From positions 3,863 to 67,862 of the forward strand of contig CAVVYW010000009.1 in NCBI GenBank assembly GCA_963752605.1: 64,000 bases of DNA. Reading direction: 5' to 3'. The position numbers and the translations under genes are program-made. This document shows positions 1,270 to 59,483 of the stretch, piece after piece. A model generated the notes under the pieces. It searched no databases. It saw nothing but the letters and a program-made list of their open reading frames with translations, and was not told the origin of the DNA. Source of the DNA: an uncultured Solirubrobacterales bacterium (lineage in GTDB: Bacteria > Actinomycetota > Thermoleophilia > Solirubrobacterales > 70-9). Position 1 is the stretch's first letter. Each line of letters opens with the position of its first letter.

Positions 1270-1464
1270 ATGAAGGCACGCACGCTGAGAAAGATCGCTG
1301 CTGTGGCAACGGGCGCCGCTCTGGCGCTGTCGTTCCCGGCCGTCGGCTCCGCCACCAAGGGCGGCGTCCCCAATTCGGACAAGCCCTGCAAGGCGAAGAA
1401 GGACCACAAGAAGCCGAAGAAGCCCGCGCCGAACACGCGCGGCAAGAAGTGCGGTTTCGCTTGA
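1270..1464 (+). CDS. small secreted cationic peptide: signal peptide plus Lys-rich two-Cys tail only
   Basis: ATG at 1270 preceded by GGGGGTG. MKARTLRKIAAVATGAALALSFPAVGSA is a Sec signal peptide. It is followed by ...DKPCKAKKDHKKPKKPAPNTRGKKCGFA. Confidence 0.6.
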   Translation: MKARTLRKIAAVATGAALALSFPAVGSATKGGVPNSDKPCKAKKDHKKPKKPAPNTRGKKCGFA

Positions 1465-8865: not shown

Positions 8866-9433
8866 GATGCGACGCATTGCAACGACGAGTTGCCTGGCGG
8901 GGATGCTCTTGGCATTGAGCTCTGTCCCGGCGGGCGCCGCAACCCTGACGCCCAGCAGCGCCGACTTCGGAACTCAGCCCGTCGGAAGCGTCAGCTCCCC
9001 ACGGGCGTTCACGCTCACGCCTGAGCTCGTGGACGTGCTGCCGCTGACGATCGCGACGACCGGCGACTTCAAGCAGACGAACAACTGCGGGGCGGCGCTG
9101 CAGTTCCTGAGCGGCCCGTGCACGATCAACGTGACCTTCGCGCCGATCGGCGCGGGTAACCGGACCGGAAACCTGAGCACCACGGCGCTCGTCCTCGGCG
9201 GTCCCACGGCGACGCTCAGGGGCGCCGCGACCCAGCAGCAGAGTGGGCCGGGAGCAGGCGGACCGCAGACGACCTGCAAGAAGAAGGGCGGAAAGAAGAA
9301 GAAGAAGAAGAAGGGCGGCAAGCGGGGCAAGAAGGGCGCCGACGCCGTGACCGCCAAGAAGAAGAAGGGCAAGAAGGGGAAGGGCTGCAAGAAGAAGGGC
9401 AAGAAGAAGGGGAAGGGCAAGAAGAAGCGCTAG
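8866..9433 (+). CDS. secreted Ig-like (choice-of-anchor-D/HYDIN-like) domain protein with poly-Lys two-Cys tail
   Basis: AAGGAGG lies 6 nt before the ATG at 8866. Signal peptide MRRIATTSCLAGMLLALSSVPAGAA. The tail is TTCKKKGGKKKKKKKGG...GCKKKGKKKGKGKKKR. Confidence 0.8.
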
Positions 9434-9476: not shown

Positions 9477-10256
9477 GTGGAGCACCCAGCGCCGCGGCGC
9501 CCCGACCGAGAGGACGTCCACGACGGCCTCGCCTACACCCTCTGGCTGCCCGATCGGCTCGGGGCGAAGGACCGCGGCGCCCCGAGCCGGCGTGTGCCCG
9601 AGCCGCCCTGGCCGGGAGTCGTGATCCTGCACGGAGCCGGATCGCGCAAGGAGAACCACGCCGACTTCGCCAGGCTCGCCACCGCGGCGGGGTGGGCGGC
9701 ACTCGCTTTCGACGCCCGGGGGCACGGGGCCTCGGAGGGACCGATGTCCCCCGGCGCAATCCAGGACGTGATCCGGATGGTCAGGCTCCTCGCGGCAACC
9801 AGCGGCGTGGACGAAACCCGGGTCGCCCTGCGAGGTTCGAGCATGGGCGGCTTCCTCGCCCTGCACGCAGCCGCGATCGCCGACGAGGTGGCGGGGGTGA
9901 TCGCGATCTGCCCGGCGGGCGAGAGTGAGCTGCGCCGGGGCCTACGACGGGGCGAGCTCGAGATGCGGGTTGACGACCCCGCGGCCCTGGAGGCGTGGCT
10001 CGCTGAGCATGACCTGCGGGATGCGGTCGAGTGGATCGCGGGGCGTCCCGTGATCCTCCTGCACGCGGATGGGGACGAGCAGATTCCGAGCGACTGGTCG
10101 GAGGAGCTCTACGAACATGTGGCGGAGCCCTCCAAGCTGGTGGTGATGCCGGGCGGCGACCACCGCTCGCTTCAGCACGACGCGGAGATCCAGGCGATGG
10201 CGCTCCGCTGGCTGGAACGCGAGCTGGATCGCTCGGCTAGAGGCCGAGCCCGCTGA
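9477..10256 (+). CDS. alpha/beta hydrolase (dienelactone hydrolase / prolyl oligopeptidase-like)
   Basis: 259 aa. GSSMGG nucleophile elbow, then HADGDEQIP and GGDH late in the sequence. Confidence 0.8.
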   Translation: MEHPAPRRPDREDVHDGLAYTLWLPDRLGAKDRGAPSRRVPEPPWPGVVILHGAGSRKENHADFARLATAAGWAALAFDARGHGASEGPMSPGAIQDVIRMVRLLAATSGVDETRVALRGSSMGGFLALHAAAIADEVAGVIAICPAGESELRRGLRRGELEMRVDDPAALEAWLAEHDLRDAVEWIAGRPVILLHADGDEQIPSDWSEELYEHVAEPSKLVVMPGGDHRSLQHDAEIQAMALRWLERELDRSARGRAR

Positions 10257-10815
10257 CCGCGTTGCCGGCGTCGTTGGTGGCGCCGCTGACCGCGTCGCCC
10301 GCGTTCGTCCCGGTGACGTCGTTGACGGCGCCGCCGACCTGGTTGCCGGCGCCGGAGACCGCCTGGCCCACTCCCTGGGATCCCGAGCCTCCCTGAGACG
10401 GCGAGGAGCCACCGCCATCGCCGCCCCCACCGCCGCTGGAGGGCGAGCCACCGCCCGTTCCCGTTCCCGATCCCGAGCCCCCGCCCGAGGAGGGGGACTC
10501 CCCGCCGGTGACACCGGGCGAGCGCTCGCCGCCGCTCGCCTGCTTCCTGCCCCCGGCAGCGCCGCCGTCGGCGGCGCCACGGGCCGGCGTGGCGGGAGCG
10601 CTCGAGGAGGCCGGATCGGCATTCTCAGCCGAGCCCGCCTCAACCGTCGAGTCGTCGCTCGAGAACAGTCCGCCCGCATTGGGCCAGGCGTCAAATGTGA
10701 TCATCCCGACGACGAGGAGGAAGACGACCAGCCCGGCGGCCATCGCCGCACCCACGATCCCGAGCTCCGCCAAGAAGCTCTCAGCCGTCCTTGCCCTGCT
10801 TCGAAGTGCCGTCAT
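10237..10815 (-). CDS. single-pass membrane protein with Gly/Ser-rich extracytoplasmic region
   Basis: ATG at 10815 with AGGAGG 8 nt upstream. One TM helix followed by FDAWP. Paralogous N-terminus to the next gene. Confidence 0.6.
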   Translation of the reverse strand: MTALRSRARTAESFLAELGIVGAAMAAGLVVFLLVVGMITFDAWPNAGGLFSSDDSTVEAGSAENADPASSSAPATPARGAADGGAAGGRKQASGGERSPGVTGGESPSSGGGSGSGTGTGGGSPSSGGGGGDGGGSSPSQGGSGSQGVGQAVSGAGNQVGGAVNDVTGTNAGDAVSGATNDAGNAVSGLGL

Positions 10816-10850
10816 TTGGGGGGCCTCCTGCCCTCCGATACCGCTTGAGG

Positions 10851-11630
10851 TTACTTGCCCTTACCGAGCCCGGGCTTCGAGGACGAGCTCGACCCGGAGT
10901 TACCCGGCGCCCCCTCCGTGGGCTGGATCGTCACCCCGGACTGCTTGCTGCTGCCCCCGGACCCGTTGCCGTTGCCGGGGTTACCGGACGGGTTCTTCCT
11001 GCCGCCGCCGTTCGAGTGTGCGGGCGGATTGGTCTGGGGCTTGCCGGGATCGACCCTCGCGTTCGGATTCCGCGGCTTCGGGGTTGCGGGATTGCCGCCC
11101 CCGGGATTGCCGCCCCCGGGATTGCCGCCTCCGGGATTGCCGCCCCCGGGATTGCCGCCCCCGGGATTGCCCGGAGAGCCAGTGCCGCCGCCACCGCCGT
11201 CACCGACCCCCGGGGCGGGTGCGGGCGGTGCTGGCGGAGCGGCCGGAGGGTTACCCGCGGGCGGAGAGTTGGGTGGCTTGGGCGACCGCTTCTCGCCCCC
11301 GTCGTCCGCGCCGCCGGGTGCCGGGGCGCCCGCTGCTGGGCTCGAGGCCGTGGGAGTGAGGATGCCGACGCCCGGGCTGAGCCCGGCTTCCCCTGCGGGT
11401 TGGCTCACGGAGCCGCCGAGATTGAGCTGTGCCTCTTCCTGGGCGCCCCCGCGGACCGGGGTTCCCGGCCAGACGTCGAACGACACCAGGCCGACCAGCG
11501 AGATCAGCGCCACGCCGGCCCCGGCCAGGAGGGCGCCGCTGGCGCCCACGCCGAGAATGTAGGTCTGGGTTGTTCGCGCGGCTCCGGACACCCCTGCGGC
11601 GTCCATGCCGCGCCTCCAAAGCGCACTCAT
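10851..11630 (-). CDS. single-pass membrane protein with Pro/Gly-rich region containing GNPGG x5 repeats
   Basis: ATG at 11630. One TM helix followed by FDVWP. Contains the 15-bp tandem repeat. Confidence 0.6.
   Translation of the reverse strand: MSALWRRGMDAAGVSGAARTTQTYILGVGASGALLAGAGVALISLVGLVSFDVWPGTPVRGGAQEEAQLNLGGSVSQPAGEAGLSPGVGILTPTASSPAAGAPAPGGADDGGEKRSPKPPNSPPAGNPPAAPPAPPAPAPGVGDGGGGGTGSPGNPGGGNPGGGNPGGGNPGGGNPGGGNPATPKPRNPNARVDPGKPQTNPPAHSNGGGRKNPSGNPGNGNGSGGSSKQSGVTIQPTEGAPGNSGSSSSSKPGLGKGK
11088..11174. repeat. 15-bp tandem repeat GGGATTGCCGCCCCC, about 5.8 copies (in-frame GNPGG repeats)
   Basis: Units at 11088, 11103, 11118 (one mismatch), 11133 and 11148, plus a partial unit at 11163. 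Confidence 0.9.
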
Positions 11631-11805
11631 GCTCTTCCTATCGGCCGATCCTGCTCGAACCTTTAGCCGTGGTCGAAATTGTTTTCTTGCTGCCGCGGCG
11701 CGGTCATCCCGGCCGCGCCGTGATCAGTGTACGCGCCCGGACCCGCCGGCCCGCAGTCATACGGGCGGAATTTGGGCCCTTCCCCCGTGGGCGTGGACGA
11801 ACGGG

Positions 11806-19784: not shown

Positions 19785-19844
19785 CTGTGGTGCCTCCTAA
19801 CTAAGTTTTATGACGCAACCAACTGTACCGAACAGGATAGCCGG

Positions 19845-19864
19845 TTGACTGGCGAGTCAGCCAG
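19845..19864. promoter_or_regulatory. putative repressor operator TTGACTGGCGAGTCAGCCAG (IR TGACT-N4-AGTCA)
   Basis: Lies 61-80 nt upstream of the thiolase start, in the same orientation as the box at 14375-14394. Confidence 0.55.
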
Positions 19865-19907
19865 GCCTCCTCATCCAGGTAAGGCTATCGGTGCTCGCGG
19901 GGTCCCG

Positions 19908-20270
19908 CTACGACCGGCGCTTCTTCTGCTTGCACTTCTTCTTCTTGGCGGTGACCGCCGCGCCGCCCCTCCCCTTCTTGCTCTTCTTCTTGCACTTTTT
20001 CCGCTTCTTCGTCGGGGTGGCGGCGGGGGCGGGTGCGGGGGCGGGTGTAGCCACAGGCGGCGGGCCGGTGGTGCTGACGTCGAGGCCCCAGCCGCGATGG
20101 ATCGCGCCGGGATCGGGGTCGAAATCGTCGGCGACGTAGAGCTGCCAGGTGCCGTTGGGAGCCGTGCCGTTGAAGGCGGCGAGGGTCGAGCTGTAGGGGG
20201 CTCCGGGAGCCGGGCCGGGCAGCGGATCGCCCGGGGAGGTGTCCGTCGGCCGGAAGACGCCCGACACCAC
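19908..20270 (-). pseudogene. 3' remnant of a secreted P-domain (proprotein-convertase-like) protein with poly-Lys two-Cys tail
   Basis: Only the last half of a P-domain is present (FNGTAPNGTWQLYVADDFDPDPGAIHRGWGLDV), followed by a PA linker and the tail KKRKKCKKKSKKGRGGAAVTAKKKKCKQKKRRS. There is no signal peptide and no upstream continuation in any frame. Confidence 0.5.
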
Positions 20271-20380
20271 GCCCGGCGGCGGCGGACGGCACCGGCGGCG
20301 CGCCCGCGGCTCGAGGTCCGGCGCGCGATTCCCTGAGCTCGGCCCCCGACCCTTGGCAGCGACGCGGGTACGAGCGGCCC

Positions 20381-21175
20381 GCGCTTGCGGGTAGCGGCAC
20401 GATCGCCTGCGGGCTCGCGGCCATCGCCAGCACCCGGTCGAAGACGATCCTGCTGGCGCGCTCCGACACCTCCGCCTGGCGCGCCGAGGAGGAGACGGAC
20501 AAGCTCTGCGCCAAGGTGGACGGGGGCGACGCGAGCCGCGTCAAGGTCACCACGGACCCCTCCGACCTCTCCTCCTGCGACCTGGTGATCGAGGCGATCA
20601 TCGAGGAGCCGGAACCGAAGGTGGAGCTGCTGAAGGCGGTTGCCGAGGCCGCCCCCGAGGCCGATCTCGCCACCACCACCTCCTCCCTCTCCGTCGCCGA
20701 GCTGGGCGCCAAGAGCGGCCACCCGGAGCGGACCTTCGGCCTGCACCCGTTCAACCCCGTCGTTCGCATGGAGCTGATCGAGCTCTGCGTGCCGGAGGGG
20801 GCCCGGGGTGACATCGCGGCTCGCGCCCGCGCCTGGTGCGAGTCGCTCGGCAAGACGGTGGTGGAGGTGCCCGACGAGGTCGGGTTCGTCGTCAACCGGC
20901 TGCTCTTCCCCTACCTCTTCGATGCGGTGCGGCTGCTCGAGCAGACCGGGATGAAGCCCGAGGAGGTGGACCGCTGCATGACCCTCGGCGCGAACTACCC
21001 GATGGGGCCGCTCGCCCTGATCGACCTGGTCGGGATCGACGTCGCGGCCGCGATCGGCGAGGCCCTACATGCGGAGACCGGCGAGGAGCACCACCAGCCG
21101 CCCGGCCGCCTGGTCAGCATGACCGGAGAGGGGAGGCTCGGCCGCAAGTCCGGCGCGGGCTTCTACGACTACTGA
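20381..21175 (+). CDS. 3-hydroxyacyl-CoA (3-hydroxybutyryl-CoA) dehydrogenase; no canonical start codon
   Basis: Homology begins at ALAGSGTIACGLA (the GxGxxG motif) and continues to GRKSGAGFYDY. The frame has no ATG/GTG/TTG between the stop at 20171 and the internal GTG at 20516. Confidence 0.75.
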   Translation, partial: ALAGSGTIACGLAAIASTRSKTILLARSDTSAWRAEEETDKLCAKVDGGDASRVKVTTDPSDLSSCDLVIEAIIEEPEPKVELLKAVAEAAPEADLATTTSSLSVAELGAKSGHPERTFGLHPFNPVVRMELIELCVPEGARGDIAARARAWCESLGKTVVEVPDEVGFVVNRLLFPYLFDAVRLLEQTGMKPEEVDRCMTLGANYPMGPLALIDLVGIDVAAAIGEALHAETGEEHHQPPGRLVSMTGEGRLGRKSGAGFYDY

Positions 21176-23812: not shown

Positions 23813-25579
23813 CTACTTGCGCGTCTTGTGCTTTTTCTTCCGCCGCTTGCGGCGTTTGCGGCGACGCTTCGGCGGGGCAGCCGCGCCGGGTACGGTGACC
23901 GGCGCCGGCGCCTGCCCGTTGCCGGCTCCCGGGACAAGCTCGCCGGGCGTGGTGAACTGGTGCCCGGGTGCAGGCGCCGGGAGCCCGTAGTCGGCCGCGC
24001 GAAGCACCAGCTGCTCGGCGGCGCGCTCGCAGACCGCGGAGATCGTCAGCGAGGGGTTGACCCCGAGGCTGGTCGGGACCGCCGAGGAGTCCATGCAGAA
24101 GAGGCCCTCGTTGTCGAAGACCTCGCAGCGATGGTCCACGACCCCGAGCCCCGGGTCGTCGGCCATCCGGCAGCCGCCGAGGGGGTGGGAGGCGTAGGCG
24201 CCCTCTGTCTCGCTCAGCTTCAGGAACTTCCCGAGTCCGGCGCCCGCAATCACGTCCTCGATCGCCGCGTTCGCCTGCTCGCGGACCAGGGTCGACTGAG
24301 GCGAGAGCTGGTAGTTGAACAGCCCGATCCCCACCGGGCCGGAGTTCGGCCGCACGTGGCCCCCACCGAGCGGGGGTACCGCGAAGAACGACCCGTCATG
24401 CGTGTCCTCGACCATCGCGAGGATCTCGATGTGGGAGTTCCAGGTGGAGATGCTCCGCTTCTTCTCCCTCCCCCACCAGGACGGCTCCTCCCCGTTGCCG
24501 CGCCCGTCGTCGTAGAGGATGTTGGTGAGCTGTGAGAGCAGGATCTCCTGGAGGGTGAAGCGCTTGCCGTCCCCGTCGTTCCCAGGCTTGTCGACCCACC
24601 AGTCGTAGCTCATCGTGGTGATCGGCTTGCCCTTGTGGAAGTCGTCATACGCCGGCAGCCCGAGCGCGCTCTGGACCTCGGCCGGGTCGAACTCGATCGC
24701 GGCGACGTGGTCGCCGTTGACGCCGAGGTGCTGCCCGACCTGTGACGAGACGGAGCGGAGCGCACCCGCCTGCTGCGAGCGCATCAGGATCGGCGGCGTC
24801 CCCATCGCACCGGCGGCGAGGATCAGGACCTTGCACTCGATGTCCTCGATCTCGCCGGACTGCATCTTGGTCTCCGGGTCGATGCTCTGGGCCTTGACGA
24901 GGTAGCGGTACGGCGTGAAGCTGGAGCGGCGGATCTCGTTGACCTGAATCTGCGGGCGGATCTCGACTCCTGCCGCCTCGGCGGCCGCCAGGTAGTTGGT
25001 GATCAGTGAGTTCTTCGCCCCGAAGATGCAGCCCGTGTAGCACCACTTCGCGTCCACGCAGCGGTCCATGCTGATCGCCAGCGGCACCCGGTCACAGCTG
25101 TGGCCCGCCTGGTTCAGCATCGCCGCCCAGACGCCGCCGGACTTCGACACCTCGTCCCATCCCGGCTGCTCGACCCGCAGCCCGGCCTCGATCCGCTCGT
25201 AGTAGGGGTCCAGCGCGGCGCGCGAGATCTCCGCCGGCCAGACGCGGCCCGAGCCGGGATCGTCGGGATGGCGATCGCGGCGCTCGAACGTCTCGGACGG
25301 GGAGCGGAGCGAGGCGGCGAGATAAAGGTTGGAGCCGCCGCCCACCAGGTCCGCGACGACTACTTGTGCGCCCTGGCCCTGGATCAGCCCGTAGATGTCG
25401 GAGAGGTGGTCGACGTCCATCGACTGGCGGAAGTCGTCGTGGCCCTTGCGCATCCCCCGTTCGAGGATGAGCACGCTCGGGCTCTCGCCGGCCTGGGTGT
25501 AGAGCTCGGCGAGCCGCCAGGCCGCGATCGAGCCGCCGAAGCCCGAGCCGACGATGCAGACGTCCACGCGCTCGCTCAC
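23813..25579 (-). CDS. GMC family FAD oxidoreductase with polybasic C-terminal tail
   Basis: The GTG at 25579 overlaps the upstream stop (GTGA). Motif VCIVGSGFGGSIAAWRLA. The tail is PKRRRKRRKRRKKKHKTRK. The listed 864-aa ORF is an over-extension. Confidence 0.9.
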   Translation of the reverse strand: MSERVDVCIVGSGFGGSIAAWRLAELYTQAGESPSVLILERGMRKGHDDFRQSMDVDHLSDIYGLIQGQGAQVVVADLVGGGSNLYLAASLRSPSETFERRDRHPDDPGSGRVWPAEISRAALDPYYERIEAGLRVEQPGWDEVSKSGGVWAAMLNQAGHSCDRVPLAISMDRCVDAKWCYTGCIFGAKNSLITNYLAAAEAAGVEIRPQIQVNEIRRSSFTPYRYLVKAQSIDPETKMQSGEIEDIECKVLILAAGAMGTPPILMRSQQAGALRSVSSQVGQHLGVNGDHVAAIEFDPAEVQSALGLPAYDDFHKGKPITTMSYDWWVDKPGNDGDGKRFTLQEILLSQLTNILYDDGRGNGEEPSWWGREKKRSISTWNSHIEILAMVEDTHDGSFFAVPPLGGGHVRPNSGPVGIGLFNYQLSPQSTLVREQANAAIEDVIAGAGLGKFLKLSETEGAYASHPLGGCRMADDPGLGVVDHRCEVFDNEGLFCMDSSAVPTSLGVNPSLTISAVCERAAEQLVLRAADYGLPAPAPGHQFTTPGELVPGAGNGQAPAPVTVPGAAAPPKRRRKRRKRRKKKHKTRK

Positions 25580-26238
25580 GGCAGGTACCCCCTCGCGGTC
25601 CGCTCGGTCGCGAGCTGCTGCTTGTAGGAGAAGTCCTCGTAGCCGTGCGGCGCGGTGCCGGGGTGGCCCATCACCTTGTAGCCGCTGGCGGTGGCGTCGG
25701 TGGCATTGATCTGGGTGGCCGCGGCGCAGAAGGCGGTGAAGGGGATTGCGGCCGCGGCCTCCCAGACCACGCGGGTCGGGTTGGAGAAGGCCAGCCCCTG
25801 GACGCAGACCGCCTCGCGGGCGTCGTAGTCGAGGGTGAGGAAGGGCCCACCCTGGGGCAGGGCGAACGCCTCCAGCTCCGCCAGGAACGGGGGTGAGAGC
25901 ACGTCGAACCCGATCTTGGGGTGGTGCGCGAGCAGCAGCGCGTCGGCCTCCACGGCCCCGGGCTCGGTGTCCACGCCCGCGATGGCCTGCGGATGGATCT
26001 CGTTGCCGAGGTCGGTGACCATCGCGGGGCGGCCGGGGATGATCGTGTCGAAGAAGGCCTGCAGCGTCGCGTCCGTGGGGAGCACCGCGCCCTCCGCGTC
26101 GTCGGGCAGCAGCATGCGCGCGGCCGTCGGCATGGCCGCGGCGACGAGGGCGCCCGCTCCCAGCGCCCCGGCGCGCTGCAGGAACTGGCGCCGGGAGACC
26201 TCGATCGCAACCTCTCCCCGAATGAGACTCTCGTCCAT
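25576..26238 (-). CDS. Tat-signal small subunit (gluconate 2-dehydrogenase subunit-3-like)
   Basis: 220 aa. Twin-arginine signal SRRQFLQRAGALGAGALVAAA. Translationally coupled to the GMC oxidoreductase gene. Confidence 0.8.
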   Translation of the reverse strand: MDESLIRGEVAIEVSRRQFLQRAGALGAGALVAAAMPTAARMLLPDDAEGAVLPTDATLQAFFDTIIPGRPAMVTDLGNEIHPQAIAGVDTEPGAVEADALLLAHHPKIGFDVLSPPFLAELEAFALPQGGPFLTLDYDAREAVCVQGLAFSNPTRVVWEAAAAIPFTAFCAAATQINATDATASGYKVMGHPGTAPHGYEDFSYKQQLATERTARGYLP

Positions 26239-26337: not shown

Positions 26338-27079
26338 ATGTCGCGGTTCCTGGCAACAGCTGTCTCGGCGGCGCTGGCGCTCGCATTCGCCGCGCCCGCG
26401 GCTGCACAGAGCCCCTATCCGGAGGGCCCCTTCGCCCCCTGGGACGGCGCTAACCCATTCAACTGCGTTCTTCAGGACGCGGGCACCGGGACGACCGTGC
26501 CCGACCCGGACGCCGATCCCTACTGCGTCGAGTTCGACAAGACGCAGCAGAACCTCACCGACTCAGGCCTGTTCGAGTTCCTCGCCAACGAGCCGGGTCG
26601 CGTCGCGGCCGCGGGGCCCAAGTGCTTCTACTTCCAGAGCGACCACTGGACGGGCTCGGTCGTCCAGGGCGAGGAGCCTGAGCTCTGGCACTGGGACGGC
26701 CAGTACTTCTTCGACAAGGCGCGCGGGGTCGGCGGCGTCAACGTCCAGAACTTCCGGATCCTCGGCCAGCCCGCGTCCCCCAGCGACTACGGCGAGGTGC
26801 CCGAGGAGATGGCGCCGTACATGGACCAGGGCGGCGGGGGCGCCTACATCATCGGAGAGCGTCGACGTGGACCCGAACTGCGTCGCCAGGGTCGACACGC
26901 CCGAGGAGGCGGCTCAGGTCTATGCCGGCGGCGGCCCGGCCCCCCAGGCCGGCGGTGCGCCGGGTCGGCGCCCCGCAGCCGGCGGAGCAACCTCGGCCGC
27001 CGCTCAGAAGAAGTGCAAGCGCAAGGGCAGGCGAGGCAAGTCCGCGGCCCGCAAGCGCTGCAAGCGCAAGCAGCGCTAA
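26338..27079 (+). CDS. secreted protein with poly-Lys/Arg two-Cys tail; +1 frameshift near 26845-26862
   Basis: The ATG at 26338 gives signal peptide MSRFLATAVSAALALAFAAPAAA. The frame is good up to ...GGGGAYIIGE. The +1 frame continues SVDVDPNCVARVDTPEEAAQVY...QKKCKRKGRRGKSAARKRCKRKQR. Confidence 0.6.
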
Positions 27080-53986: not shown

Positions 53987-55453
53987 ATGTTGGGCTCGAG
54001 GCCAATGACCGGCGCCGTGCTGTGCGCAGTGCTGGTGCTCTCCATCGCCGGGTCGGCCCATGGTCAAGCGCCGGAGCCCGACTGCGCGGGACCGGCCGGC
54101 GACCCTGAGCCGGGCACCCCGGCCTGGGAGCAGCGCGAAGCGGAGAACGCCTACTGCGCCACGCAGCGCAACCTCGACACCTCCACCAATCCCGCCTACT
54201 ACGAGGCGCTCGCGGCGCAGACCCGCATCGTGGCGATGGACCCGATGCGCGAGCCTCTCGACTGGGACGGGTCGCGGTTCCGCTTCGAGGAGCTCGCCAT
54301 CCATGACGCGGAGGGCAAGGAGCTCCCGGCGATGCTCTTCCGCCCCTGCGACTCGTCCTGTGCCGCTTTGCCCACTGAGCTCCGGCGGCATGAGCCTCCG
54401 TATCCGGGGGTGGTGATCATGCACGGCGGCGCCGCCAACCAGGAGATGTACCTGTGGGCGGCCGAGGGCCTCGCCGAGGCCGGCTACATGGTGCTCTCGG
54501 TCAACCTCGACGACCGCACCGACGGCGGGCACTACGAGGCGACCAAGGCCGGGCTCGACTGGCTGCTGTCGACGCCGTCGGAGCCGTCGGTGGACGGCAC
54601 CCACAACCCTCACTGGGCCGAGCTCGACGGCGACCGCATCGGGCTGGCGGGGCACTCGGCGGGCGGCGTCGCGGTGAGCCGACTGGGCCAGGAGGACCCC
54701 CGCGTAAAGGCGATCGTCTCCTGGGACCGCGCCCAGTCGGGCCCGATGCCCGAGGACCTGGCGATCCGGACCCCCGCGCTCTTCTTCACCGCCGACTACA
54801 ACTGCCAGCGGGTTCCGGTCTGCCTCCCGGAGCGGCGCGAGTCGCCACCGGATCCGCTCGGCCCAGGCAACAAGGACGAGGACTTCCAGCGGCTTCGAGC
54901 CGCACGGGTGGACACGATGAAGGTCGCGCTCCGTGCGGCCACCCACCTCGACTTCACCCAGTGGAACCCGCTCAACGCGAGCCGCTATGGAGCCGCCACC
55001 GCGTTCCATTACACGCTCGCCTGGTTCGACCGCTACCTCAAGGGGCCGAGGTCCAAGGCGGTCGCGGCCGATGCCCTGCGCCGGCTGACGGCCGCGAGCT
55101 TCGACGAATCGGGCGACGTCCACAACATCAGCACCGGCATCTGGGACCCGGCGACGATGCAGAACGTCCCGATCCGGATCGCCGGCCAGCCCGTGGCGGA
55201 TCGCCTCAGCTTCCACTTCCGCTCGGCGTATTGGCTGGCGCATGGATCGCGTGCATGCGAGAACATTCGCGACGGCTGCACACACGCCAGGGAGCCGCAG
55301 GCCGGCTCCAGCCCTCCCGCCGGGCCCGGCGCTCAGCCGGCGCCGCCGGGAAGGGTCGCAAAGGCGAAGAGGTGCACGCGGAAAAAGGGGTCGCGAGGCC
55401 GGGGGGCTTCACGCACGCCCTGCAAGAGAAAGGGAGGCCGAAGAAGCCGATGA
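53987..55453 (+). CDS. secreted alpha/beta hydrolase with Lys/Arg two-Cys tail
   Basis: ATG at 53987. Has a signal peptide and the GHSAGG nucleophile elbow. The tail is KAKRCTRKKGSRGRGASRTPCKRKGGRRSR. Confidence 0.8.
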   Translation: MLGSRPMTGAVLCAVLVLSIAGSAHGQAPEPDCAGPAGDPEPGTPAWEQREAENAYCATQRNLDTSTNPAYYEALAAQTRIVAMDPMREPLDWDGSRFRFEELAIHDAEGKELPAMLFRPCDSSCAALPTELRRHEPPYPGVVIMHGGAANQEMYLWAAEGLAEAGYMVLSVNLDDRTDGGHYEATKAGLDWLLSTPSEPSVDGTHNPHWAELDGDRIGLAGHSAGGVAVSRLGQEDPRVKAIVSWDRAQSGPMPEDLAIRTPALFFTADYNCQRVPVCLPERRESPPDPLGPGNKDEDFQRLRAARVDTMKVALRAATHLDFTQWNPLNASRYGAATAFHYTLAWFDRYLKGPRSKAVAADALRRLTAASFDESGDVHNISTGIWDPATMQNVPIRIAGQPVADRLSFHFRSAYWLAHGSRACENIRDGCTHAREPQAGSSPPAGPGAQPAPPGRVAKAKRCTRKKGSRGRGASRTPCKRKGGRRSR

Positions 55454-57147
55454 GGAAGGCGCTTGGAGTTGCCGTCACCGCGACCGCGATTGCGCTGGCC
55501 CCTGCGTCAGCGCTCGCGTTCGACCCGGAGCTCGAGGCGAAGAACTTCGCCAAGCTCAGCGAGCGGGTCGCGAACGTCACCGGGAAGCCGGAGTTCCTCC
55601 AGCGCCTTCATCAGCAGAACATCGAGTCGCAGGTCCAGTGGGTGGAGCTGAGGGCGAACGACCCCGAGCGAAACCCCGCCAACGTCTGCGCTCGCCGCTC
55701 ACAGGAGTGCGCGGGTGACATCCGGTTCTACGACTGGCAGGAGAGTGGCTACGGGGTGGCCACCCCGGTGATCTTCACCGCACGCAGCGGCGCCGTCATC
55801 TCCGGGAAGGTCTGGGGGACGGTCGCCGGGCCGCAGAGGCGCCCAGCCATCGTGATCACCACCGGCTCGGTGCAGGCGCCCGAGACGCTCTACTGGGGGC
55901 TGGCGGCCGCCTTCGCCAAGGCCGGCTACATCGTCCTCACCTACGACGTCCAAGGCCAGGGGCAGTCCGACACCTTCGGCGAGGCCCCGGACCAGCAGGA
56001 GGGCGTGCCCTCGCAAGCGGGGCAGCCCTTCTACGACGGCAGCGAGGACGCGCTTGACTTCCTCCTCTCCACCCCCTCTGCCCCATACGACCCGCGGCCG
56101 AGCTGCGGCAACGCCAACGACGGAGTCGCCACCGACCACAGCCCCAAGCACGACCGGCGCGTCGAGGCCGGGCTCGCCGCCGCCTTCAACCCGATGCACG
56201 ACCGCGTCGACGCGGAGCGCATCGGGATCGCCGGGCACTCCCTCGGGGCGAGCGCCGTCTCGTTCGTCGGCCAGCGCGACCCGCGGGTCGATGCGACCGT
56301 CGCCTGGGACAACCTGTCGGCTCCGGGCCAGGGTTTCTCCAGCCTGCCCGACTGCCCCTCCAACCCGGACTCACGGGTCGTGCCGGCGATCTCCAAGCCC
56401 GCCATGGGCATCTCGAACGACTACGGCCTGACGCCGACGCCGTTCACCTCGGACCCCGACCCCGAGGCGAAGACCGCCGCCTTCCAGGCGTATAAGGCGG
56501 CCGGCGTCGACTCGATGCAGGTCAACATCCGCGGCGGCAGCCACTACGAGTCGTCGCTGCTGCCCTGCTGCACGGTTCCGGCCTTCGCCGAGGCGACCTG
56601 GCGGGGCCAGGACTTCGTCCAGTGGTACACGCAGGCGTGGTTCGACAAGTACGTCAAGGGGGGTGATCCGACGGCGGACACACGGCTGCTCACCGACCGG
56701 TGGCGGAACGACACGCTCACCCAGGGCATCGACCAGAACGACGACCCGAACATGTTCTCCTTCTACTACCGGTCCCGGTACGACTTCACCCTGGCCGGCG
56801 GCGGGGCGGCGACCTGTGACGACCTGCGGACCGGCTGCCCTGAGATGGGGCCGGACGGCGGAGCGCCGAACTTCGACTTCGTCGCCTTCGCGAACACCCC
56901 GGATGGCGCGGGCGAGGCCGCCGCACCCGACACCGACGGTGACGGCCTCAGCGATGCCTCCGACTCCTGCCCGACAGTGGCCGGCTCGGCGTCGAACCGC
57001 GGGTGTCCGGATCAGCGCGCCGGCGGCGCCGCCGGGTCACCCGTCCCTCGCTCGAGCTGCGCGGCGCTCCGCAAGAGTCTGAAGCGGGTCAAGGGCCAGC
57101 GGGCCAAGAGGAAGCTCCGCGCGAAGCTGCGGAAGCTGGGCTGCTAG
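55450..57147 (+). CDS. secreted alpha/beta hydrolase paralog with TSP3-like DTDGDGLSD motif and Lys/Arg two-Cys tail
   Basis: The ATG at 55450 overlaps the upstream stop (ATGA). Signal peptide MRKALGVAVTATAIALAPASALA and GHSLG elbow. The tail is SSCAALRKSLKRVKGQRAKRKLRAKLRKLGC. Confidence 0.8.
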   Translation: MRKALGVAVTATAIALAPASALAFDPELEAKNFAKLSERVANVTGKPEFLQRLHQQNIESQVQWVELRANDPERNPANVCARRSQECAGDIRFYDWQESGYGVATPVIFTARSGAVISGKVWGTVAGPQRRPAIVITTGSVQAPETLYWGLAAAFAKAGYIVLTYDVQGQGQSDTFGEAPDQQEGVPSQAGQPFYDGSEDALDFLLSTPSAPYDPRPSCGNANDGVATDHSPKHDRRVEAGLAAAFNPMHDRVDAERIGIAGHSLGASAVSFVGQRDPRVDATVAWDNLSAPGQGFSSLPDCPSNPDSRVVPAISKPAMGISNDYGLTPTPFTSDPDPEAKTAAFQAYKAAGVDSMQVNIRGGSHYESSLLPCCTVPAFAEATWRGQDFVQWYTQAWFDKYVKGGDPTADTRLLTDRWRNDTLTQGIDQNDDPNMFSFYYRSRYDFTLAGGGAATCDDLRTGCPEMGPDGGAPNFDFVAFANTPDGAGEAAAPDTDGDGLSDASDSCPTVAGSASNRGCPDQRAGGAAGSPVPRSSCAALRKSLKRVKGQRAKRKLRAKLRKLGC

Positions 57148-57171: not shown

Positions 57172-57609
57172 TTAGCCCGGATTCGTCGGGAACGGCGCTC
57201 CGGCGAAGAACGCGAACCAGACGGCGAACCCGATCAGCGAGATGATCGCGGTCGCCACGAAGAGCCGCTCGATCGGGTCGGTCTCGTTCTGGCCGGGGCG
57301 ATACGGCGTGTCGCGCATGCTCCGATTCCAGGACGCCCGACGCCGCCCCGGCTCCTCGCCGCGCCCGAGCAGCCGGCCGCGCACCCATGACGCGAGCAGC
57401 AGCAGACCCCAGTAGCTGACCAGGATGCCGGTGCCGATGAAGATGGCGACGGAGCCGTTGACCGCCCCAGGCTTGCCGTAGAGCTGCGAGGCCAGGTAGA
57501 TCCAGAGCAGCGGCACCCCGAAGCCGATCAGGCAGGCGCCGAGCAGAGTGAACGCCATCGAGCCGGTGCCCAGCAGCGCTCGTCGGATTGCGTTTATCAC
57601 TGCAGTCAT
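57172..57609 (-). CDS. hypothetical membrane protein
   Basis: 145 aa with 3 predicted TM helices and high GC3. Confidence 0.6.
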   Translation of the reverse strand: MTAVINAIRRALLGTGSMAFTLLGACLIGFGVPLLWIYLASQLYGKPGAVNGSVAIFIGTGILVSYWGLLLLASWVRGRLLGRGEEPGRRRASWNRSMRDTPYRPGQNETDPIERLFVATAIISLIGFAVWFAFFAGAPFPTNPG

Positions 57610-57651
57610 TGCCGTTCCCTGGCGGTCGCGGACTCCGGTCCGTAAGTCAGG

Positions 57652-58122
57652 TTAGCGGCCGGATTTCGACAGGCAGCGACCGCAGCGGCCCACCATCGGC
57701 ACGCGCCTGAACGTCACCTCGTAGCCGTAGCGCTCGCGGATCAGCTCGCGGAAGCCGTCCAGCTCGTGCGGGTCGACGTCGAGGATCCCTCCGCAGCGGT
57801 CGCAGGCGAGGTACTCGCGCTCCCCTAAGCCCGCCGGCACGTATCGCCCCGGGCCCCGGCCCGCCTGGATCTCATGGACCAGATCGTGCTCGGCGAGGAT
57901 CTCGAGGTTGCGGTAGACCGAGGCGAGGTCCAGGCCGATGCTGCCTCCCCCGGGGCCGCGGGAGATCTCCCGCGCCGAGAGCGGCGTGGTCGCGCCCCAG
58001 AGGATTTGCAGGATCAGCCGCCGGGAGGCGGAGGCCCTCAGGCCCCTGCGCTTGAGCACGGCCACCGCCGCGTCGGCGCTTGTGGGATTCGCGATCCCCT
58101 CTCGTCCGTGAGGCCGGGCCAC
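57652..58122 (-). CDS. Fur family transcriptional regulator
   Basis: 156 aa. Winged-helix N-terminus, then CDRCG ... CGRC (two CxxC pairs) in a Fur-like layout. Confidence 0.8.
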   Translation of the reverse strand: MARPHGREGIANPTSADAAVAVLKRRGLRASASRRLILQILWGATTPLSAREISRGPGGGSIGLDLASVYRNLEILAEHDLVHEIQAGRGPGRYVPAGLGEREYLACDRCGGILDVDPHELDGFRELIRERYGYEVTFRRVPMVGRCGRCLSKSGR

Positions 58123-58154
58123 ACCCGTCCTAGCGTTGGCCTCGCCCGGATGGA

Positions 58155-59483
58155 TCAGCCGGCGGGCGCCGAGCGGGCCTCTTTGAGTGCGGCCCGCGCC
58201 TGCGGCCCTTGGATGGGGTTGAACCGCGGGCTTCGCTCCAGTAGCCGGCTCAGGAACGTCTCAGCCCGCTGGGTCTCTCCGGCACGGAGGGAGACGATCC
58301 CCGCGTGGAAGAGGAAATATGGATCGAGCGATCCCAGCCGCATGGCCTCGTGGGAGAAGCGAAGGGCCGCGCCGTCTCGCCCGGCCGCGCTCAGGGTCCA
58401 CGAGTAGGCGTCGGCGGCGCGCACGCTCGGCGTAGCGCGCCAGGCCTGCCTGCCGGCCTCGACCGCCTTGGCAGCGCTGCCGTGGTCGGCCTCGAAGATG
58501 GCGAGCTCGGTGGCGATCCGGACCCCGAAGGAATCCAGCCGCTCGAACGCCGCGGTCGCGGCCGCGTAGGACTCCCTCGCCGCATCGAGATCTCCCGCGG
58601 CCTGCTGGGACTCGCCCAGCAGGATCGCGTGGTCGGGCGCGGGGATCCGCTCCAGGACCGAGCGCTGGAGCGCGATGGCCTGTTCGAGGTTTCCCCTGCC
58701 GGCCTCGATCGCGGCCAGGCCGAGCAGCGCGTCCGGGACGTTCGGATCGCGGGAGAGCACTCCGCGATAGATCCGCTCCGCCTCTGCGTAGTTGCCGCGG
58801 TCGAACTCGAGCTTCCCCAGCAGGGTGTTGGCGAAGCTCGAGCTGTCCGAGTGCTCGCCCGCTGCTGACCCCGCCAGTCTCATGGCCCCAACGGCACCCG
58901 CGACGTCCCCGTGCAGCTCCCGGAAGTAGGAGATCCTCGCGTACGAGGCCAGCTCGGGTCGGCGCACGGCGTAGCGCGCCAGGGTGCGCTCTGCGGCTCC
59001 GTAGCGGCCGAGCTCGACCTGCGCGTCCGCGATCTGCCCGTCGATCTTCGCGACCGAGGGATTGATCTGCTGGGCACGGAGGCTCAGCGCGAGGCCGCGG
59101 TGGAAGTGGTGCCGCGAGAGCTCCAGCTCCGCGAGGCCCGCGGTCGCCGTGAAGTCGTTCGGATCGAGGCTCAGCGCCGCCTCGAACGCCTCCCGGGCCT
59201 TCGGGTAGAAGGCTGGGTCCTCGGTCTCTCCTACCCTGGTCAGGTAGGCGAGCCCAAGGTCGCCGAACACCTGGGGATTAGAGGGCGATTCCCCGATCTG
59301 TCCCTCCAGCTCGGCGATCCGCTCGTCCGTGGTGGCGGTGGCCGCCGGCCCCGAGAGCTCCGTGCCGCCTCCGATCTCGGGTGCGGAGGTCGAGTCGAGA
59401 GCTCGGATGCCTGCCAGCACTGCGACGAAGGTGAGCGCCGCGGCGGCGAACTTGTAGATAAGCGTGTCCCGTGCGAAGTCCAT
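58155..59483 (-). CDS. tetratricopeptide repeat protein with N-terminal TM anchor
   Basis: 442 aa. Many 34-aa TPR-like repeats (A..Y..AL...P....A...LG). Confidence 0.8.
   Translation of the reverse strand: MDFARDTLIYKFAAAALTFVAVLAGIRALDSTSAPEIGGGTELSGPAATATTDERIAELEGQIGESPSNPQVFGDLGLAYLTRVGETEDPAFYPKAREAFEAALSLDPNDFTATAGLAELELSRHHFHRGLALSLRAQQINPSVAKIDGQIADAQVELGRYGAAERTLARYAVRRPELASYARISYFRELHGDVAGAVGAMRLAGSAAGEHSDSSSFANTLLGKLEFDRGNYAEAERIYRGVLSRDPNVPDALLGLAAIEAGRGNLEQAIALQRSVLERIPAPDHAILLGESQQAAGDLDAARESYAAATAAFERLDSFGVRIATELAIFEADHGSAAKAVEAGRQAWRATPSVRAADAYSWTLSAAGRDGAALRFSHEAMRLGSLDPYFLFHAGIVSLRAGETQRAETFLSRLLERSPRFNPIQGPQARAALKEARSAPAG

What the first reader, a model, noticed from the sequence alone, without database searches (positions are those of the whole stretch)
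8866..9433. Recurrent C-terminal poly-Lys/Arg two-cysteine tail on unrelated secreted proteins: candidate undescribed sorting or wall-anchoring module
Seen directly: eight ORFs in this 64 kb end in a 20-55 aa tail made almost only of K/R/G. The tail usually contains exactly two Cys, each embedded in K/R, in the pattern [KR][KR]C[KR][KR][KR]...[KR][KR]C[KR]x[KR][KR]. A P/A/G/T-rich linker precedes it. The eight are: 1270-1464 (DKPCKAKKDHKKPKKPAPNTRGKKCGFA); 8866-9433 (TTCKKKGGKKKKKKKGGKRGKKGADAVTAKKKKGKKGKGCKKKGKKKGKGKKKR); 19908-20270 minus (KKRKKCKKKSKKGRGGAAVTAKKKKCKQKKRRS); 26338-27079 (QKKCKRKGRRGKSAARKRCKRKQR); 53987-55453 (KAKRCTRKKGSRGRGASRTPCKRKGGRRSR); 55450-57147 (SSCAALRKSLKRVKGQRAKRKLRAKLRKLGC); 62402-64000 minus (PKKCKKGFVKKKGKCKRKKRRK); and a Cys-free version on the GMC oxidoreductase 23813-25579 (PKRRRKRRKRRKKKHKTRK). 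The passenger domains are unrelated: Ig-like, P-domain, two alpha/beta hydrolases, a beta-propeller and a flavoenzyme. Each ORF with an intact N-terminus has a Sec signal peptide, except the GMC enzyme, which has a Tat-signal partner. Two tails share an AVTAKKKK core that is also conserved at the DNA level (ACCGCCAAGAAGAAGAAG), which suggests common descent rather than composition alone. The form does not match LPXTG, PEP-CTERM, GlyGly-CTERM, MYXO-CTERM or T9SS CTD signals as I know them. Inference: the tail is an envelope-retention or sorting tag. It could bind anionic wall polymers or eDNA electrostatically, or a Cys-pair hairpin could be recognised or processed.
Basis: partly seen in the sequence, partly recalled or inferred. 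Interest (0 to 1): 0.85.

Follow-up and report, generated by a model that had tools for sequence, protein, structure and literature searches.

The report
Polylysine two-cysteine tail on exported proteins
Secreted proteins of a soil actinobacterium (order Solirubrobacterales) carry a short, extremely lysine-rich segment with two paired cysteines in the place where other bacteria put cell-surface anchoring signals; no searched database or paper describes it, and it most likely sticks the proteins to the negatively charged cell envelope.

Summary
In a 70% G+C window where Lys is 2.5% of protein bodies, five or six exported proteins end in a 19-52 aa tail (56% Lys across 106 tails, net charge +9 to +43) with two Cys. 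Fifty-seven orthologs of the focal protein keep both Cys and an uncharged Ala-rich core. Metagenome and exhaustive profile searches found the module on at least 19 (form A) and 27 (form B) unrelated passenger clusters. Tail genes are enriched for signal peptides (odds ratio 17). The passengers are families that elsewhere carry PEP-CTERM, GlyGly-CTERM, MYXO-CTERM or T9SS signals. No Pfam or NCBIfam model matches. The tail has no hydrophobic segment, so it is not a classical tripartite sorting signal, and form A sometimes sits directly after the signal peptide. Passenger Cys counts are almost always even, so the two tail Cys probably form a disulfide. AlphaFold predicts form B (PTGQRAAALKKCAKIK..KKKKCKKRAR.LPV; 666 clusters) as a confident basic helix-turn-helix, and form A as disordered. 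Best reading (about 0.5): a disulfide-closed polycationic module that holds exported proteins on anionic envelope polymers. The ligand, the disulfide and any processing are untested.

The parts
8867..9433 (+). Focal gene (188 aa). Signal peptide aa 1-24 (8867-8938); ASH/PapD-like Ig beta-sandwich aa 25-122; Gly/Gln linker; form A tail aa 137-188.
   Evidence: AF2 gives pLDDT >90 for residues 25-122 and about 50 for the tail. Foldseek hits HYDIN and CEP192 PapD-like domains. NCBIfam choice-of-anchor D scores 44.8 bits against a 45-bit cutoff. Synteny lysA, this gene, a/b hydrolase is conserved in L001 and L002.
9275..9430 (+). Focal tail: C137 (9275-9277), K/G arm, uncharged core GADAVTA (9335-9355), K/G arm, C174 (9386-9388), 14-residue K/G run to the C-terminus. 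35 Lys in 52 residues.
   Evidence: C137, A160, K164 and C174 are invariant in 40 orthologs. The DNA is an imperfect AAG/AAGAAGGGC microsatellite.
1270..1464 (+). 64-aa ORF made of a signal peptide plus a basic two-Cys segment only (tail 1387-1461, CKAKKDHKKPKKPAPNTRGKKCGFA). It fits the module loosely.
   Evidence: A similar ORF with signal peptide plus module only occurs in L091.
19908..20270 (-). Remnant: P-domain-like fragment, Pro/Ala linker and form A tail (19911-19994, CKKKSKKGRGGAAVTAKKKKCKQKKRRS). No signal peptide.
   Evidence: Intact P_proprotein passengers with form B tails exist elsewhere (6 of 143).
23813..25579 (-). GMC flavoenzyme with a Cys-free polybasic end (23816-23872, PKRRRKRRKRRKKKHKTRK). 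Not the two-Cys module. The upstream partner 25576-26238 is a DUF5987 protein with a Tat-type SRRQFLQ signal.
26338..27079 (+). Frameshifted exported-protein gene. Signal peptide MSRFLATAVSAALALAFAAPAAAQ and N-part run from 26338 to about 26859 in one frame; C-part 26858-27079 is in the next frame; tail 27014-27076 (CKRKGRRGKSAARKRCKRKQR).
   Evidence: No Pfam family matches the conceptually repaired protein.
53987..55453 (+). Alpha/beta hydrolase (PETase/DLH-like) with a signal peptide and an Arg-rich form of the tail (55373-55450, CTRKKGSRGRGASRTPCKRKGGRRSR).
55450..57147 (+). Second alpha/beta hydrolase (4-nt overlap with the first), with a signal peptide, a TSP3-like repeat and a distinct tail (57058-57144, CAALRKSLKRVKGQRAKRKLRAKLRKLGC). 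This is a basic amphipathic stretch bracketed by two Cys, the second being the last residue.
   Evidence: Assigning it to the same module family is an inference.
62402..64000 (-). Delta-60 repeat beta-propeller protein cut by the window edge (full length 583 aa = P0073, with signal peptide). Short-loop tail 62405-62461 (CKKGFVKKKGKCKRKKRRK). Its tandem upstream paralog P0088, just outside the window, carries the form B tail.

Best explanation
The tail is a modular, non-enzymatic cell-surface retention module of Solirubrobacterales, which are monoderm Actinomycetota. The proposed steps are these. The protein is exported by Sec and its signal peptide is removed. The two tail Cys are oxidised to an intramolecular disulfide, which closes a polycationic loop in form A (K/G arms around an Ala-rich hinge) or staples a basic alpha-hairpin in form B. 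This compact polycation, net charge +9 to +43, hangs from a flexible Pro/Thr/Ala linker. It binds non-covalently to polyanionic envelope components such as teichoic or teichuronic-type wall polymers, lipoglycans or anionic phospholipid head groups, and so keeps enzymes and adhesin-like passengers on the producer's surface.

Shown here: the module exists, is conserved, and is modular. It is associated with signal peptides. It occupies the architectural slot of known anchors. It lacks a membrane-spanning segment. Cys parity is even, and form B is predicted as a hairpin. Inferred: the disulfide itself, the extracellular polyanion ligand, and retention as the biological effect.
For: (1) Conservation beyond composition. 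Fifty-seven orthologs keep both Cys, and C137, A160, K164 and C174 are invariant in a 40-sequence alignment whose identity to the focal protein falls to about 40%.
(2) Modularity. The module sits on 19 unrelated passenger clusters among 51 form A/B proteins and on 27 clusters among 130 form B proteins. Form B has 666 representative clusters at E<=1e-3. Orthologs 64% identical swap tail forms.
(3) Exported proteins. 21 of 30 tail genes against 45 of 376 neighbours pass a strict signal-peptide rule, odds ratio 17, p=6e-12. 27 of 28 pass a lax rule and look like textbook Sec signal peptides by eye.
(4) Anchor slot. Passengers are choice-of-anchor Q, R and D, CSLREA, rhombotarget A, ScyF (a PEP-CTERM family), MtsC (a MYXO-CTERM family) and delta-60. 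Within the delta-60 family the close homologs have K/C tails, the Bacteroidota-type homologs have the T9SS domain PF18962, and distant homologs have none.
(5) A Pro-rich linker precedes the tail.
(6) Disulfide. Mature passengers have even Cys counts in 26 of 26 proteins (21 non-zero) and in 59 against 2 for form B. Non-exported neighbours give 79 even and 104 odd; exported neighbours without tails give 27 and 7. Five plus twelve passengers have no Cys at all.
(7) AF2 gives form B as helix 470-478 plus helix 484-495 at pLDDT 87-95. The invariant residues lie at i, i+4, i+7 spacing on each helix, and one Cys is on each helix.
(8) Position flexibility. Six ORFs carry the module directly after the signal peptide and three carry it internally, as expected for a binding module.
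(9) No LPXTG-like C-terminus occurs in 467 ORFs from the same gene pool.
(10) Arg-rich versions exist (55373-55450), so charge rather than a precise sequence matters in form A.
Against: No ligand is identified, and nothing here shows that these bacteria make teichoic-type polymers. Form B is sharply conserved in sequence (T-G-x-R-A-x-A-L..C..K...K.....CK..A..LP) and almost strictly C-terminal (140 of 143). That would also suit recognition by a dedicated protein, although the conserved residues are explained by the predicted helix-helix interface. Lys is preferred over Arg about 10:1 in a genome that otherwise prefers Arg 3:1. That hints at amine chemistry or at AAG-repeat slippage rather than charge alone. 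AF2 gives no structure for form A. Exporting +30 charges through Sec against the membrane potential is expected to be costly (own knowledge), and nothing here explains how it is managed. The signal-peptide rule is home-made, because no SignalP was available. The metagenome sample was selected by a Lys/Cys DNA pattern.
Confidence: 0.5

Rival explanations
1. A true sorting signal handled by dedicated machinery. The tail would be recognised, and then cleaved or covalently linked. For example, a Lys epsilon-amine could be used as acceptor by a peptidoglycan transpeptidase, as with the C-terminal Lys of Braun's lipoprotein. Alternatively a Cys could be modified as proposed for MYXO-CTERM-type signals.
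For: It occupies the same slot and the same passenger families as known sorting signals. Form B is almost strictly C-terminal with an invariant motif. Lys is preferred over Arg against the genomic bias. Most tails end in K, R or H. The Cys are invariant, as in the Cys-containing CTERM signals described by Haft in bioRxiv 10.1101/2023.06.07.544157.
Against: There is no hydrophobic segment: the longest V/L/I/F/M/W run is 2 residues. That is a defining part of every described tripartite signal. Form A occurs directly after signal peptides and internally. No sortase, CPBP, rhomboid, exosortase or L,D-transpeptidase-like gene was seen next to tail genes in the window or in L001 and L160-L163. Cys parity is most simply explained by an intramolecular disulfide.
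Confidence: 0.2
2. A targeting module for polyanions outside the producer's own envelope. Candidates are extracellular DNA or matrix polymers in biofilms, clay or humic surfaces in soil, or polyanionic substrates such as teichoic acids and phospholipids for the GDPD enzymes.
For: The physical chemistry is the same as in the best explanation. The samples are mostly soil metagenomes. Three of 52 passengers are glycerophosphodiester phosphodiesterases. Two ORFs consist of signal peptide plus module only, so the module can act without a passenger.
Against: Passengers are dominated by adhesin-like and surface-protein families that are cell-anchored in other phyla. Nothing here distinguishes the producer's own wall from other polyanions, so this is a variant of the best explanation rather than a true opposite.
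Confidence: 0.15
3. The two Cys form intermolecular disulfides that cross-link tail-bearing proteins into a surface network. Two thiols per tail is the minimum needed for chain formation.
For: There are exactly two conserved Cys. Passengers with zero Cys still carry the two tail Cys.
Against: The predicted form B hairpin places one Cys on each helix, the layout expected for an intramolecular staple. Arm lengths co-vary so that the core stays central, r=0.70. Like-charged polycations should repel one another.
Confidence: 0.07
4. No specific function: AAG-microsatellite expansion at 3' ends, or annotation or assembly artefacts.
For: The tail DNA is an imperfect AAG repeat and its length varies widely among orthologs. 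One tail in the window follows a frameshift, one is on a remnant, and one is frameshifted in a MAG.
Against: The Cys and the Ala core are invariant, and the reading frame and stop are maintained across 57 orthologs. The module recurs on dozens of unrelated exported passengers and on almost no non-exported ones. Form B is not low-complexity and has 666 clusters.
Confidence: 0.02

Closest known systems
[quoted passage not shown]
   Same: It is a short C-terminal add-on to signal-peptide proteins. It sits on the same passenger families (choice-of-anchor D, Q, R; delta-60; ScyF; rhombotarget A; CSLREA; MtsC). It has conserved Cys and a basic C-terminal cluster.
   Different: It has no hydrophobic transmembrane segment. 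It has two Cys that appear to pair with each other rather than one modifiable Cys. It uses Lys instead of Arg. Form A also occurs right after the signal peptide. No HMM matches. No cognate enzyme was found.
Non-covalent wall-binding modules of monoderm bacteria (GW modules of InlB/Ami, CWB2, SLH, LysM, choline-binding repeats)
   Same: It is modular, it sits on unrelated exported passengers at either end of the mature protein, and it is presumed to bind secondary wall polymers. CWB2, for example, recognises the anionic polymer PSII (PMC4973711, abstract seen).
   Different: Those modules are folded repeats of 40-80 aa, usually in tandem, with Pfam models. This one is a single 19-57 aa unit, either disordered (form A) or a mini helix hairpin of about 30 aa (form B). 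It is carried mainly by charge and has no sequence relationship to them.
Polybasic polyanion-binding tails: the mycobacterial HBHA Lys/Ala/Pro-rich C-terminal heparin-binding domain, and the C-terminal basic retention motifs of PDGF and VEGF (own knowledge)
   Same: It is a Lys-rich, low-complexity C-terminal stretch (including AAAKK-like units) that holds a protein on a polyanionic surface electrostatically.
   Different: HBHA has no signal peptide and no Cys pair, and its lysines are methylated. The growth-factor motifs are eukaryotic. None is a recurrent, transferable module across dozens of passenger families within one lineage.
T9SS C-terminal domain (PF18962)
   Same: It replaces the K/C tail at the C-terminus of homologous delta-60 passengers in Bacteroidota-type proteins.
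   Different: The T9SS domain is a beta-sandwich of 70-100 aa that is recognised by an outer-membrane translocon and then removed. The organisms here are monoderm actinobacteria, and the tail is 19-57 aa, helical or disordered.
Braun's lipoprotein C-terminal Lys linked to peptidoglycan by L,D-transpeptidases (own knowledge)
   Same: A C-terminal Lys amine serves as an attachment point to the wall. Most tails here end in K or R.
   Different: Nothing here shows a covalent link. Lpp uses a single terminal Lys, not a run of 10-35 Lys with a Cys pair.

Membership tests
Tripartite C-terminal sorting signals (LPXTG, PEP-CTERM, GlyGly-CTERM, MYXO-CTERM class) | Match to the family's signature motif or HMM | tested here: not met
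   No NCBIfam or Pfam sorting-signal model hits any tail: full proteins, 52 and 143 tail proteins, isolated tails at E<=10.
Tripartite C-terminal sorting signals (LPXTG, PEP-CTERM, GlyGly-CTERM, MYXO-CTERM class) | Hydrophobic segment long enough to span the membrane, following the motif (definition in bioRxiv 10.1101/2023.06.07.544157) | tested here: not met
   In 106 tails the longest run of V/L/I/F/M/W is 2 residues, and the longest run including A/G/C is 6.
Tripartite C-terminal sorting signals (LPXTG, PEP-CTERM, GlyGly-CTERM, MYXO-CTERM class) | Cluster of basic residues at the C-terminus | tested here: met
   The post-C2 run is 2-16 residues, mostly K/R/H. It is Lys-dominated rather than Arg-dominated.
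Tripartite C-terminal sorting signals (LPXTG, PEP-CTERM, GlyGly-CTERM, MYXO-CTERM class) | Strictly C-terminal position on proteins with an N-terminal signal peptide | tested here: inconclusive
   Signal-peptide association is met. Form B is C-terminal in 140 of 143. The pattern lies within 16 aa of the stop in 50 of 61 high-G+C ORFs. In the other 11, the module itself sits directly after the signal peptide in 6 ORFs and is internal in 3.
Tripartite C-terminal sorting signals (LPXTG, PEP-CTERM, GlyGly-CTERM, MYXO-CTERM class) | Co-occurring dedicated processing enzyme (sortase, exosortase, rhombosortase, myxosortase) | tested here: inconclusive
   None was seen in the window or in about 100 kb of related neighbourhoods. 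Genome-wide phylogenetic profiling was not possible with these tools.
Non-covalent cell-wall-binding modules (SLH, CWB2, LysM, GW, choline-binding) | Sequence membership in one of these families | tested here: not met
   No such Pfam family is hit in the tails. No PDB sequence relative of form B was found.
Non-covalent cell-wall-binding modules (SLH, CWB2, LysM, GW, choline-binding) | Transferable module on unrelated exported passengers, usable at either end of the mature protein | tested here: met
   19 and 27 passenger clusters. Tail forms are swapped between orthologs. The module is found at the N-terminus of the mature protein.
Non-covalent cell-wall-binding modules (SLH, CWB2, LysM, GW, choline-binding) | Demonstrated binding to a wall polymer | not testable with these tools
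   This needs binding assays with purified walls or polymers.
T9SS C-terminal sorting domain | Beta-sandwich domain of 70-100 aa matching PF18962/TIGR04183 | tested here: not met
   The tail is 19-57 aa. AF2 gives it as disordered or as a two-helix hairpin. PF18962 is present only in distant Bacteroidota-type homologs of the passenger.
Disulfide-stabilised exported mini-domain | The two Cys pair with each other in an oxidising compartment | tested here: inconclusive
   Indirect support only. Passenger Cys counts are even (26 of 26; 59 against 2), while non-exported controls are unbiased. One Cys lies on each predicted helix. No coordinates or mass spectrometry were available.

The most novel reading that the evidence does not exclude
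Thermoleophilia use a protein-anchoring system that needs no transmembrane segment. In this reading a disulfide-stapled polylysine hairpin is the lineage's general surface-display signal, and it is recognised by dedicated machinery or becomes covalently fixed to the wall. Lys epsilon-amines could, for example, act as acceptors for peptidoglycan transpeptidases. That would make it a new class of prokaryotic protein-sorting signal beside LPXTG, PEP-CTERM, GlyGly-CTERM, MYXO-CTERM and the T9SS CTD.
Probability: 0.17. Interest if true: 0.85.

Novelty: new variant of a known kind. Interest (0 to 1): 0.64.

Why it matters
Solirubrobacterales and other Thermoleophilia are among the most abundant and least-studied soil actinobacteria, and how they display proteins on their surface is unknown. 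This work defines a recurrent, unannotated module in two forms, one of which has at least 666 clusters at 50% identity. It marks that lineage's surface proteome and takes the place that well-known anchoring signals occupy in other phyla. An HMM for it would annotate hundreds of proteins currently labelled 'hypothetical' at once. It would give a handle for predicting the surface proteome of uncultured soil bacteria. It also offers a very small (about 25-35 aa) candidate tag for surface display or polyanion binding. If the tail turns out to be covalently attached or enzymatically processed, it would add a new class to the catalogue of prokaryotic sorting systems.

Tried and rejected
(1) Exact look-ups of the focal protein's contig found nothing, although the protein is listed from NCBI and ENA.
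A closer 12-sequence alignment worked, but it returned only one Solirubrobacterales genome plus passenger-only homologs from Acidobacteriota.
(3) A tail-only profile of form A against the 5.8-billion-protein collection gave one hit at E=4.8. Composition correction defeats Lys-rich profiles. I replaced it with a DNA pattern scan and with a profile of the less biased form B.
(4) My first signal-peptide rule tried every internal start and flagged 48% of control genes. I replaced it with a stricter rule and restricted start sites.
(5) The same DNA pattern in viral contigs gave only unrelated low-G+C hits, so there is no phage lysin or receptor-binding protein with the module.
(6) Four literature searches found no description of the tail.
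(7) Cluster look-ups gave no organism names.
(8) A PDB sequence search with form B gave no hits.
(9) I considered and rejected several readings. The opposite-strand F/L/P-rich ORFs (for example 8974-9420 and 19891-20139) are mirror images of the AAG runs. A C-terminal stop-transfer or cytoplasmic-retention role conflicts with the module sitting after the signal peptide and before the passenger. The P-T-G in form B is not a sortase motif: there is no L/A-x context and no transmembrane segment, and it sits at the N-cap of predicted helix 1.
Full report

The window is 69-72% G+C. I listed all stop-to-stop ORFs of at least 50 aa in six frames and ranked them by Lys and Arg in the last 25 residues. 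Lys is 2.5% and Arg 7.5% of the bodies of 61 window proteins, whereas Lys is 56% of residues across 106 collected tails. The chance of at least 8 Lys in 25 residues is about 1e-7. The Lys and Cys codons in the tails are almost always AAG (93 against 4 AAA) and TGC (14 of 14). With this codon bias, however, any two T-A-K-K-K-K stretches would share it, so it says little about descent.

Several details need correcting. The focal ORF starts at 8867. The signal-peptide part (26338 to about 26859) and the tail part (26858-27079) are in different frames, so the sequence carries a 1-nt frameshift. 19908-20270 is a C-terminal remnant with no signal peptide, next to a truncated dehydrogenase gene. The tail of 55450-57147 is a different, Leu-containing amphipathic form bracketed by Cys. 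The GMC tail has no Cys.

2. It is a conserved module, not just composition.

A search with the focal protein returned 71 relatives, nearly all from metagenomes. Fifty-seven of them carry the tail with both Cys. A 40-sequence alignment, whose identity to the focal protein falls to about 40%, has only four invariant tail positions: C137, A160, K164 and C174. The layout is Cys, a K/G arm, an uncharged Ala-rich core (AAAA, GAVAA, SAESA), a second K/G arm, Cys, and a K run to the end. The C1-C2 spacing ranges from 13 to 40 residues, and the DNA is an imperfect AAG microsatellite. Length therefore drifts while the Cys, the core and the reading frame are kept, which shows that the tail is translated. 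More distant passenger homologs, from Acidobacteriota, lack the tail.

The gene sits in conserved synteny (lysA, this gene, a/b hydrolase) in a 323-kb soil contig and in an uncultured Solirubrobacterales MAG. Housekeeping proteins are 82-89% identical to that MAG, which places the window in Solirubrobacterales (Thermoleophilia, Actinomycetota).

3. Distribution and passengers.

A tail-only profile failed because of composition correction. I therefore scanned metagenome contigs for the DNA pattern AAGTGCAAGAAG-N(18-48)-AAGTGCAAG, which encodes KCKK...KCK. In contigs of at least 62% G+C, the in-frame match lies within 16 residues of the stop in 50 of 61 ORFs. In low-G+C contigs the hits are unrelated repeats.

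Two forms stand out. Form A resembles the window's tails (KKKCKKHKKKRSAESAKKKCKKKKK). Form B is TGQRAAALKKCKKK...KKCKKKANLLPV.

Fifty-one tail-trimmed passengers fall into 19 BLAST clusters, and both forms occur on homologous passengers. Against neighbouring genes on the same contigs, tail genes are strongly enriched for signal peptides: 21 of 30 against 45 of 376, odds ratio 17, p=6e-12. By eye 27 of 28 have textbook Sec signal peptides. The 25 residues before the tail are Pro- and Ala-rich and depleted in acidic and aromatic residues.

A profile of form B searched exhaustively against 1.84 billion representative proteins gave 666 clusters at E<=1e-3 and 43 at E<=1e-10. Of 143 new proteins, 140 have the two-Cys domain at the extreme C-terminus, on 27 passenger clusters.

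4. What the passengers say.

No Pfam-A or NCBIfam release 20 model covers the tail, whether I scanned full proteins, 52 and 143 tail proteins en bloc, or isolated tails at E<=10.

The passengers, in contrast, are informative. Among 143 form B proteins there are choice-of-anchor Q (37), CSLREA_Nterm (17), choice-of-anchor R (12), rhombotarget A (8), choice-of-anchor D (4), ScyF PEP-CTERM protein (4), delta-60 (4) and MtsC MYXO-CTERM protein (2). By their NCBIfam names and my own knowledge, these families occur in other phyla with PEP-CTERM, GlyGly-CTERM, MYXO-CTERM, LPXTG or T9SS signals.

I tested this directly for the delta-60 passenger of 62402-64000. Twenty-nine of the 120 listed homologs carry a basic two-Cys tail, and these include nearly all of the closest ones. 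Orthologs only 64% identical carry different tail forms. Bacteroidota-type homologs carry the T9SS domain PF18962, and distant homologs carry nothing. The tandem paralog just outside the window (P0088) has form B. The tail therefore occupies the architectural slot of a surface-anchoring signal. No LPXTG-like C-terminus was found in 467 ORFs of the same gene pool.

5. It is not a classical sorting signal.

Haft's preprint defines the known class as tripartite: a signature motif, a transmembrane segment and an Arg cluster. In 106 tails the longest strongly hydrophobic run is 2 residues, and the net charge is +9 to +43. In addition, six high-G+C ORFs carry the module directly after the signal peptide, at the N-terminus of the mature protein, and three carry it internally. 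That is expected for a binding module and not for a C-terminal signal that is cleaved. It also rules out a role as a cytoplasmic stop-transfer anchor. No sortase, CPBP, rhomboid or Dsb-like gene accompanies tail genes in the window or in about 100 kb of related neighbourhoods. Those neighbourhoods also show that the window is a local hot-spot of tails.

6. The Cys pair.

In 26 complete tail proteins the mature passenger, without signal peptide and tail, has an even number of Cys in every case: 21 non-zero, 0 odd, p about 1e-6. Non-exported neighbours are unbiased (79 even, 104 odd). Exported neighbours without tails are biased (27 even, 7 odd). Form B proteins give 59 even, 2 odd and 12 with none. 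So the lineage oxidises its exported proteins, the passengers are self-sufficient in Cys pairing, and the two tail Cys are left for each other.

AlphaFold2 predicts the focal passenger as a confident ASH/PapD-like beta-sandwich and its form A tail as disordered (pLDDT about 50). For P0088 it predicts the form B tail, after a disordered linker, as helix 470-478 plus helix 484-495 at pLDDT 87-95. One Cys lies on each helix. The invariant residues (R/A471-472, L475, C478; C490, A494, L497) are spaced i, i+4, i+7, which is the pattern of a helix-helix interface. This explains the conservation of form B by fold rather than by enzyme recognition. The Cys-free tail on the GMC enzyme, whose partner has a Tat signal, fits the idea that the Cys matter only for Sec-exported, post-export-oxidised proteins. 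That is a single case.

7. Mechanism and alternatives.

The best-supported reading (about 0.5) is a disulfide-closed polycationic module on a flexible linker. It would hold exported enzymes and adhesin-like proteins on anionic envelope polymers by charge. The alternatives are listed here.
- A true sorting signal with an unknown enzyme or a covalent link (0.2). The 10:1 preference for Lys over Arg, in a genome that otherwise prefers Arg 3:1, is the best argument for amine chemistry, although AAG slippage could also explain it.
- Targeting to other polyanions such as eDNA, soil surfaces or substrates (0.15).
- Intermolecular disulfide networks (0.07).
- No function (0.02).

The ligand, the disulfide, and the way a +30 tail passes through Sec all remain untested.

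8. Novelty.

I found no model in Pfam-A (2025) or NCBIfam 20 (June 2026), no PDB sequence relative, and no paper in four full-text searches. I rate it as a new variant of a known kind, namely modular surface-retention tags on exported proteins. It is not homologous to any known tag and lacks their defining hydrophobic segment. It would be a new class of sorting system only if dedicated machinery or covalent attachment is found.

Noticed in passing
window 26338-27079: An exported-protein gene is split by a 1-nt frameshift near 26858. The signal peptide and N-part are in one frame, and the C-part with the tail is in the next. This is either an assembly indel or a recent pseudogene. No Pfam family matches the repaired protein.
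   Followed up: partly
window 19800-21175: This looks like a rearrangement scar. A P-domain-plus-tail remnant without an N-terminus (19908-20270, minus strand) faces a 3-hydroxyacyl-CoA dehydrogenase gene that lacks its N-terminal part (20516-21175, plus strand; identified by reading the sequence, not by a family search).
   Followed up: partly
window 35486-35558 (-): A genuine tRNA (Rfam RF00005, 53 bits) has an 8-nt anticodon loop, CUUGUAAA, which ARAGORN calls a 4-base anticodon 'tgta'. It is either tRNA-Thr(UGU) with a homopolymer indel or a natural expanded-loop tRNA.
   Followed up: partly
L018, L024, L035, L084, L085, L133 (metagenome loci): The same two-Cys polylysine module sits directly after the signal peptide, ahead of a passenger that begins ...LVRATLTWS.GGADD.
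   Followed up: partly
L002 9998-10699 and other genes of L002: In the Solirubrobacterales MAG the ortholog's tail is read out of frame (KCTKKGEEEGEEG...). Several neighbouring genes (lysA, the M23 peptidase, the acyl-CoA dehydrogenase) are split into pieces. This points to indel-prone long-read assembly, to which AAG runs are especially vulnerable.
   Followed up: yes
window 53987-57147: Two secreted alpha/beta hydrolases (PETase/dienelactone-hydrolase-like) form a likely operon with a 4-nt overlap at 55450-55453. Each carries a different form of the basic two-Cys tail.
   Followed up: no
window 57172-61108 (-) and L111: A conserved cluster holds a small membrane protein, a regulator-like gene, a TPR protein and a DUF4331 protein. 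The DUF4331 protein has a signal peptide and a C-terminal transmembrane anchor. L111 holds a homolog of the small membrane protein, and its tail-bearing delta-60 gene is identical in sequence to P0087, a homolog of the window's gene 62402-64000.
   Followed up: no
window 23813-26238 (-): A GMC flavoenzyme with a Cys-free Arg/Lys tail lies downstream of a DUF5987 protein that has a twin-arginine signal (SRRQFLQ). This looks like a Tat hitch-hiker pair, and it is the only polybasic tail here on a probable Tat passenger.
   Followed up: partly
window 10237-11723 (-): Two adjacent Gly/Ser/Asn-rich low-complexity ORFs; the first (10237-10815) has an N-terminal hydrophobic segment. Their function is unknown.
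   Followed up: no
window 8974-9420 (-) and 19891-20139 (+): The ORFs on the opposite strand of the tails translate as Phe/Leu/Pro-rich pseudo-hydrophobic proteins (CTT runs). These mirror-image artefacts could be mis-called as membrane proteins.
   Followed up: yes
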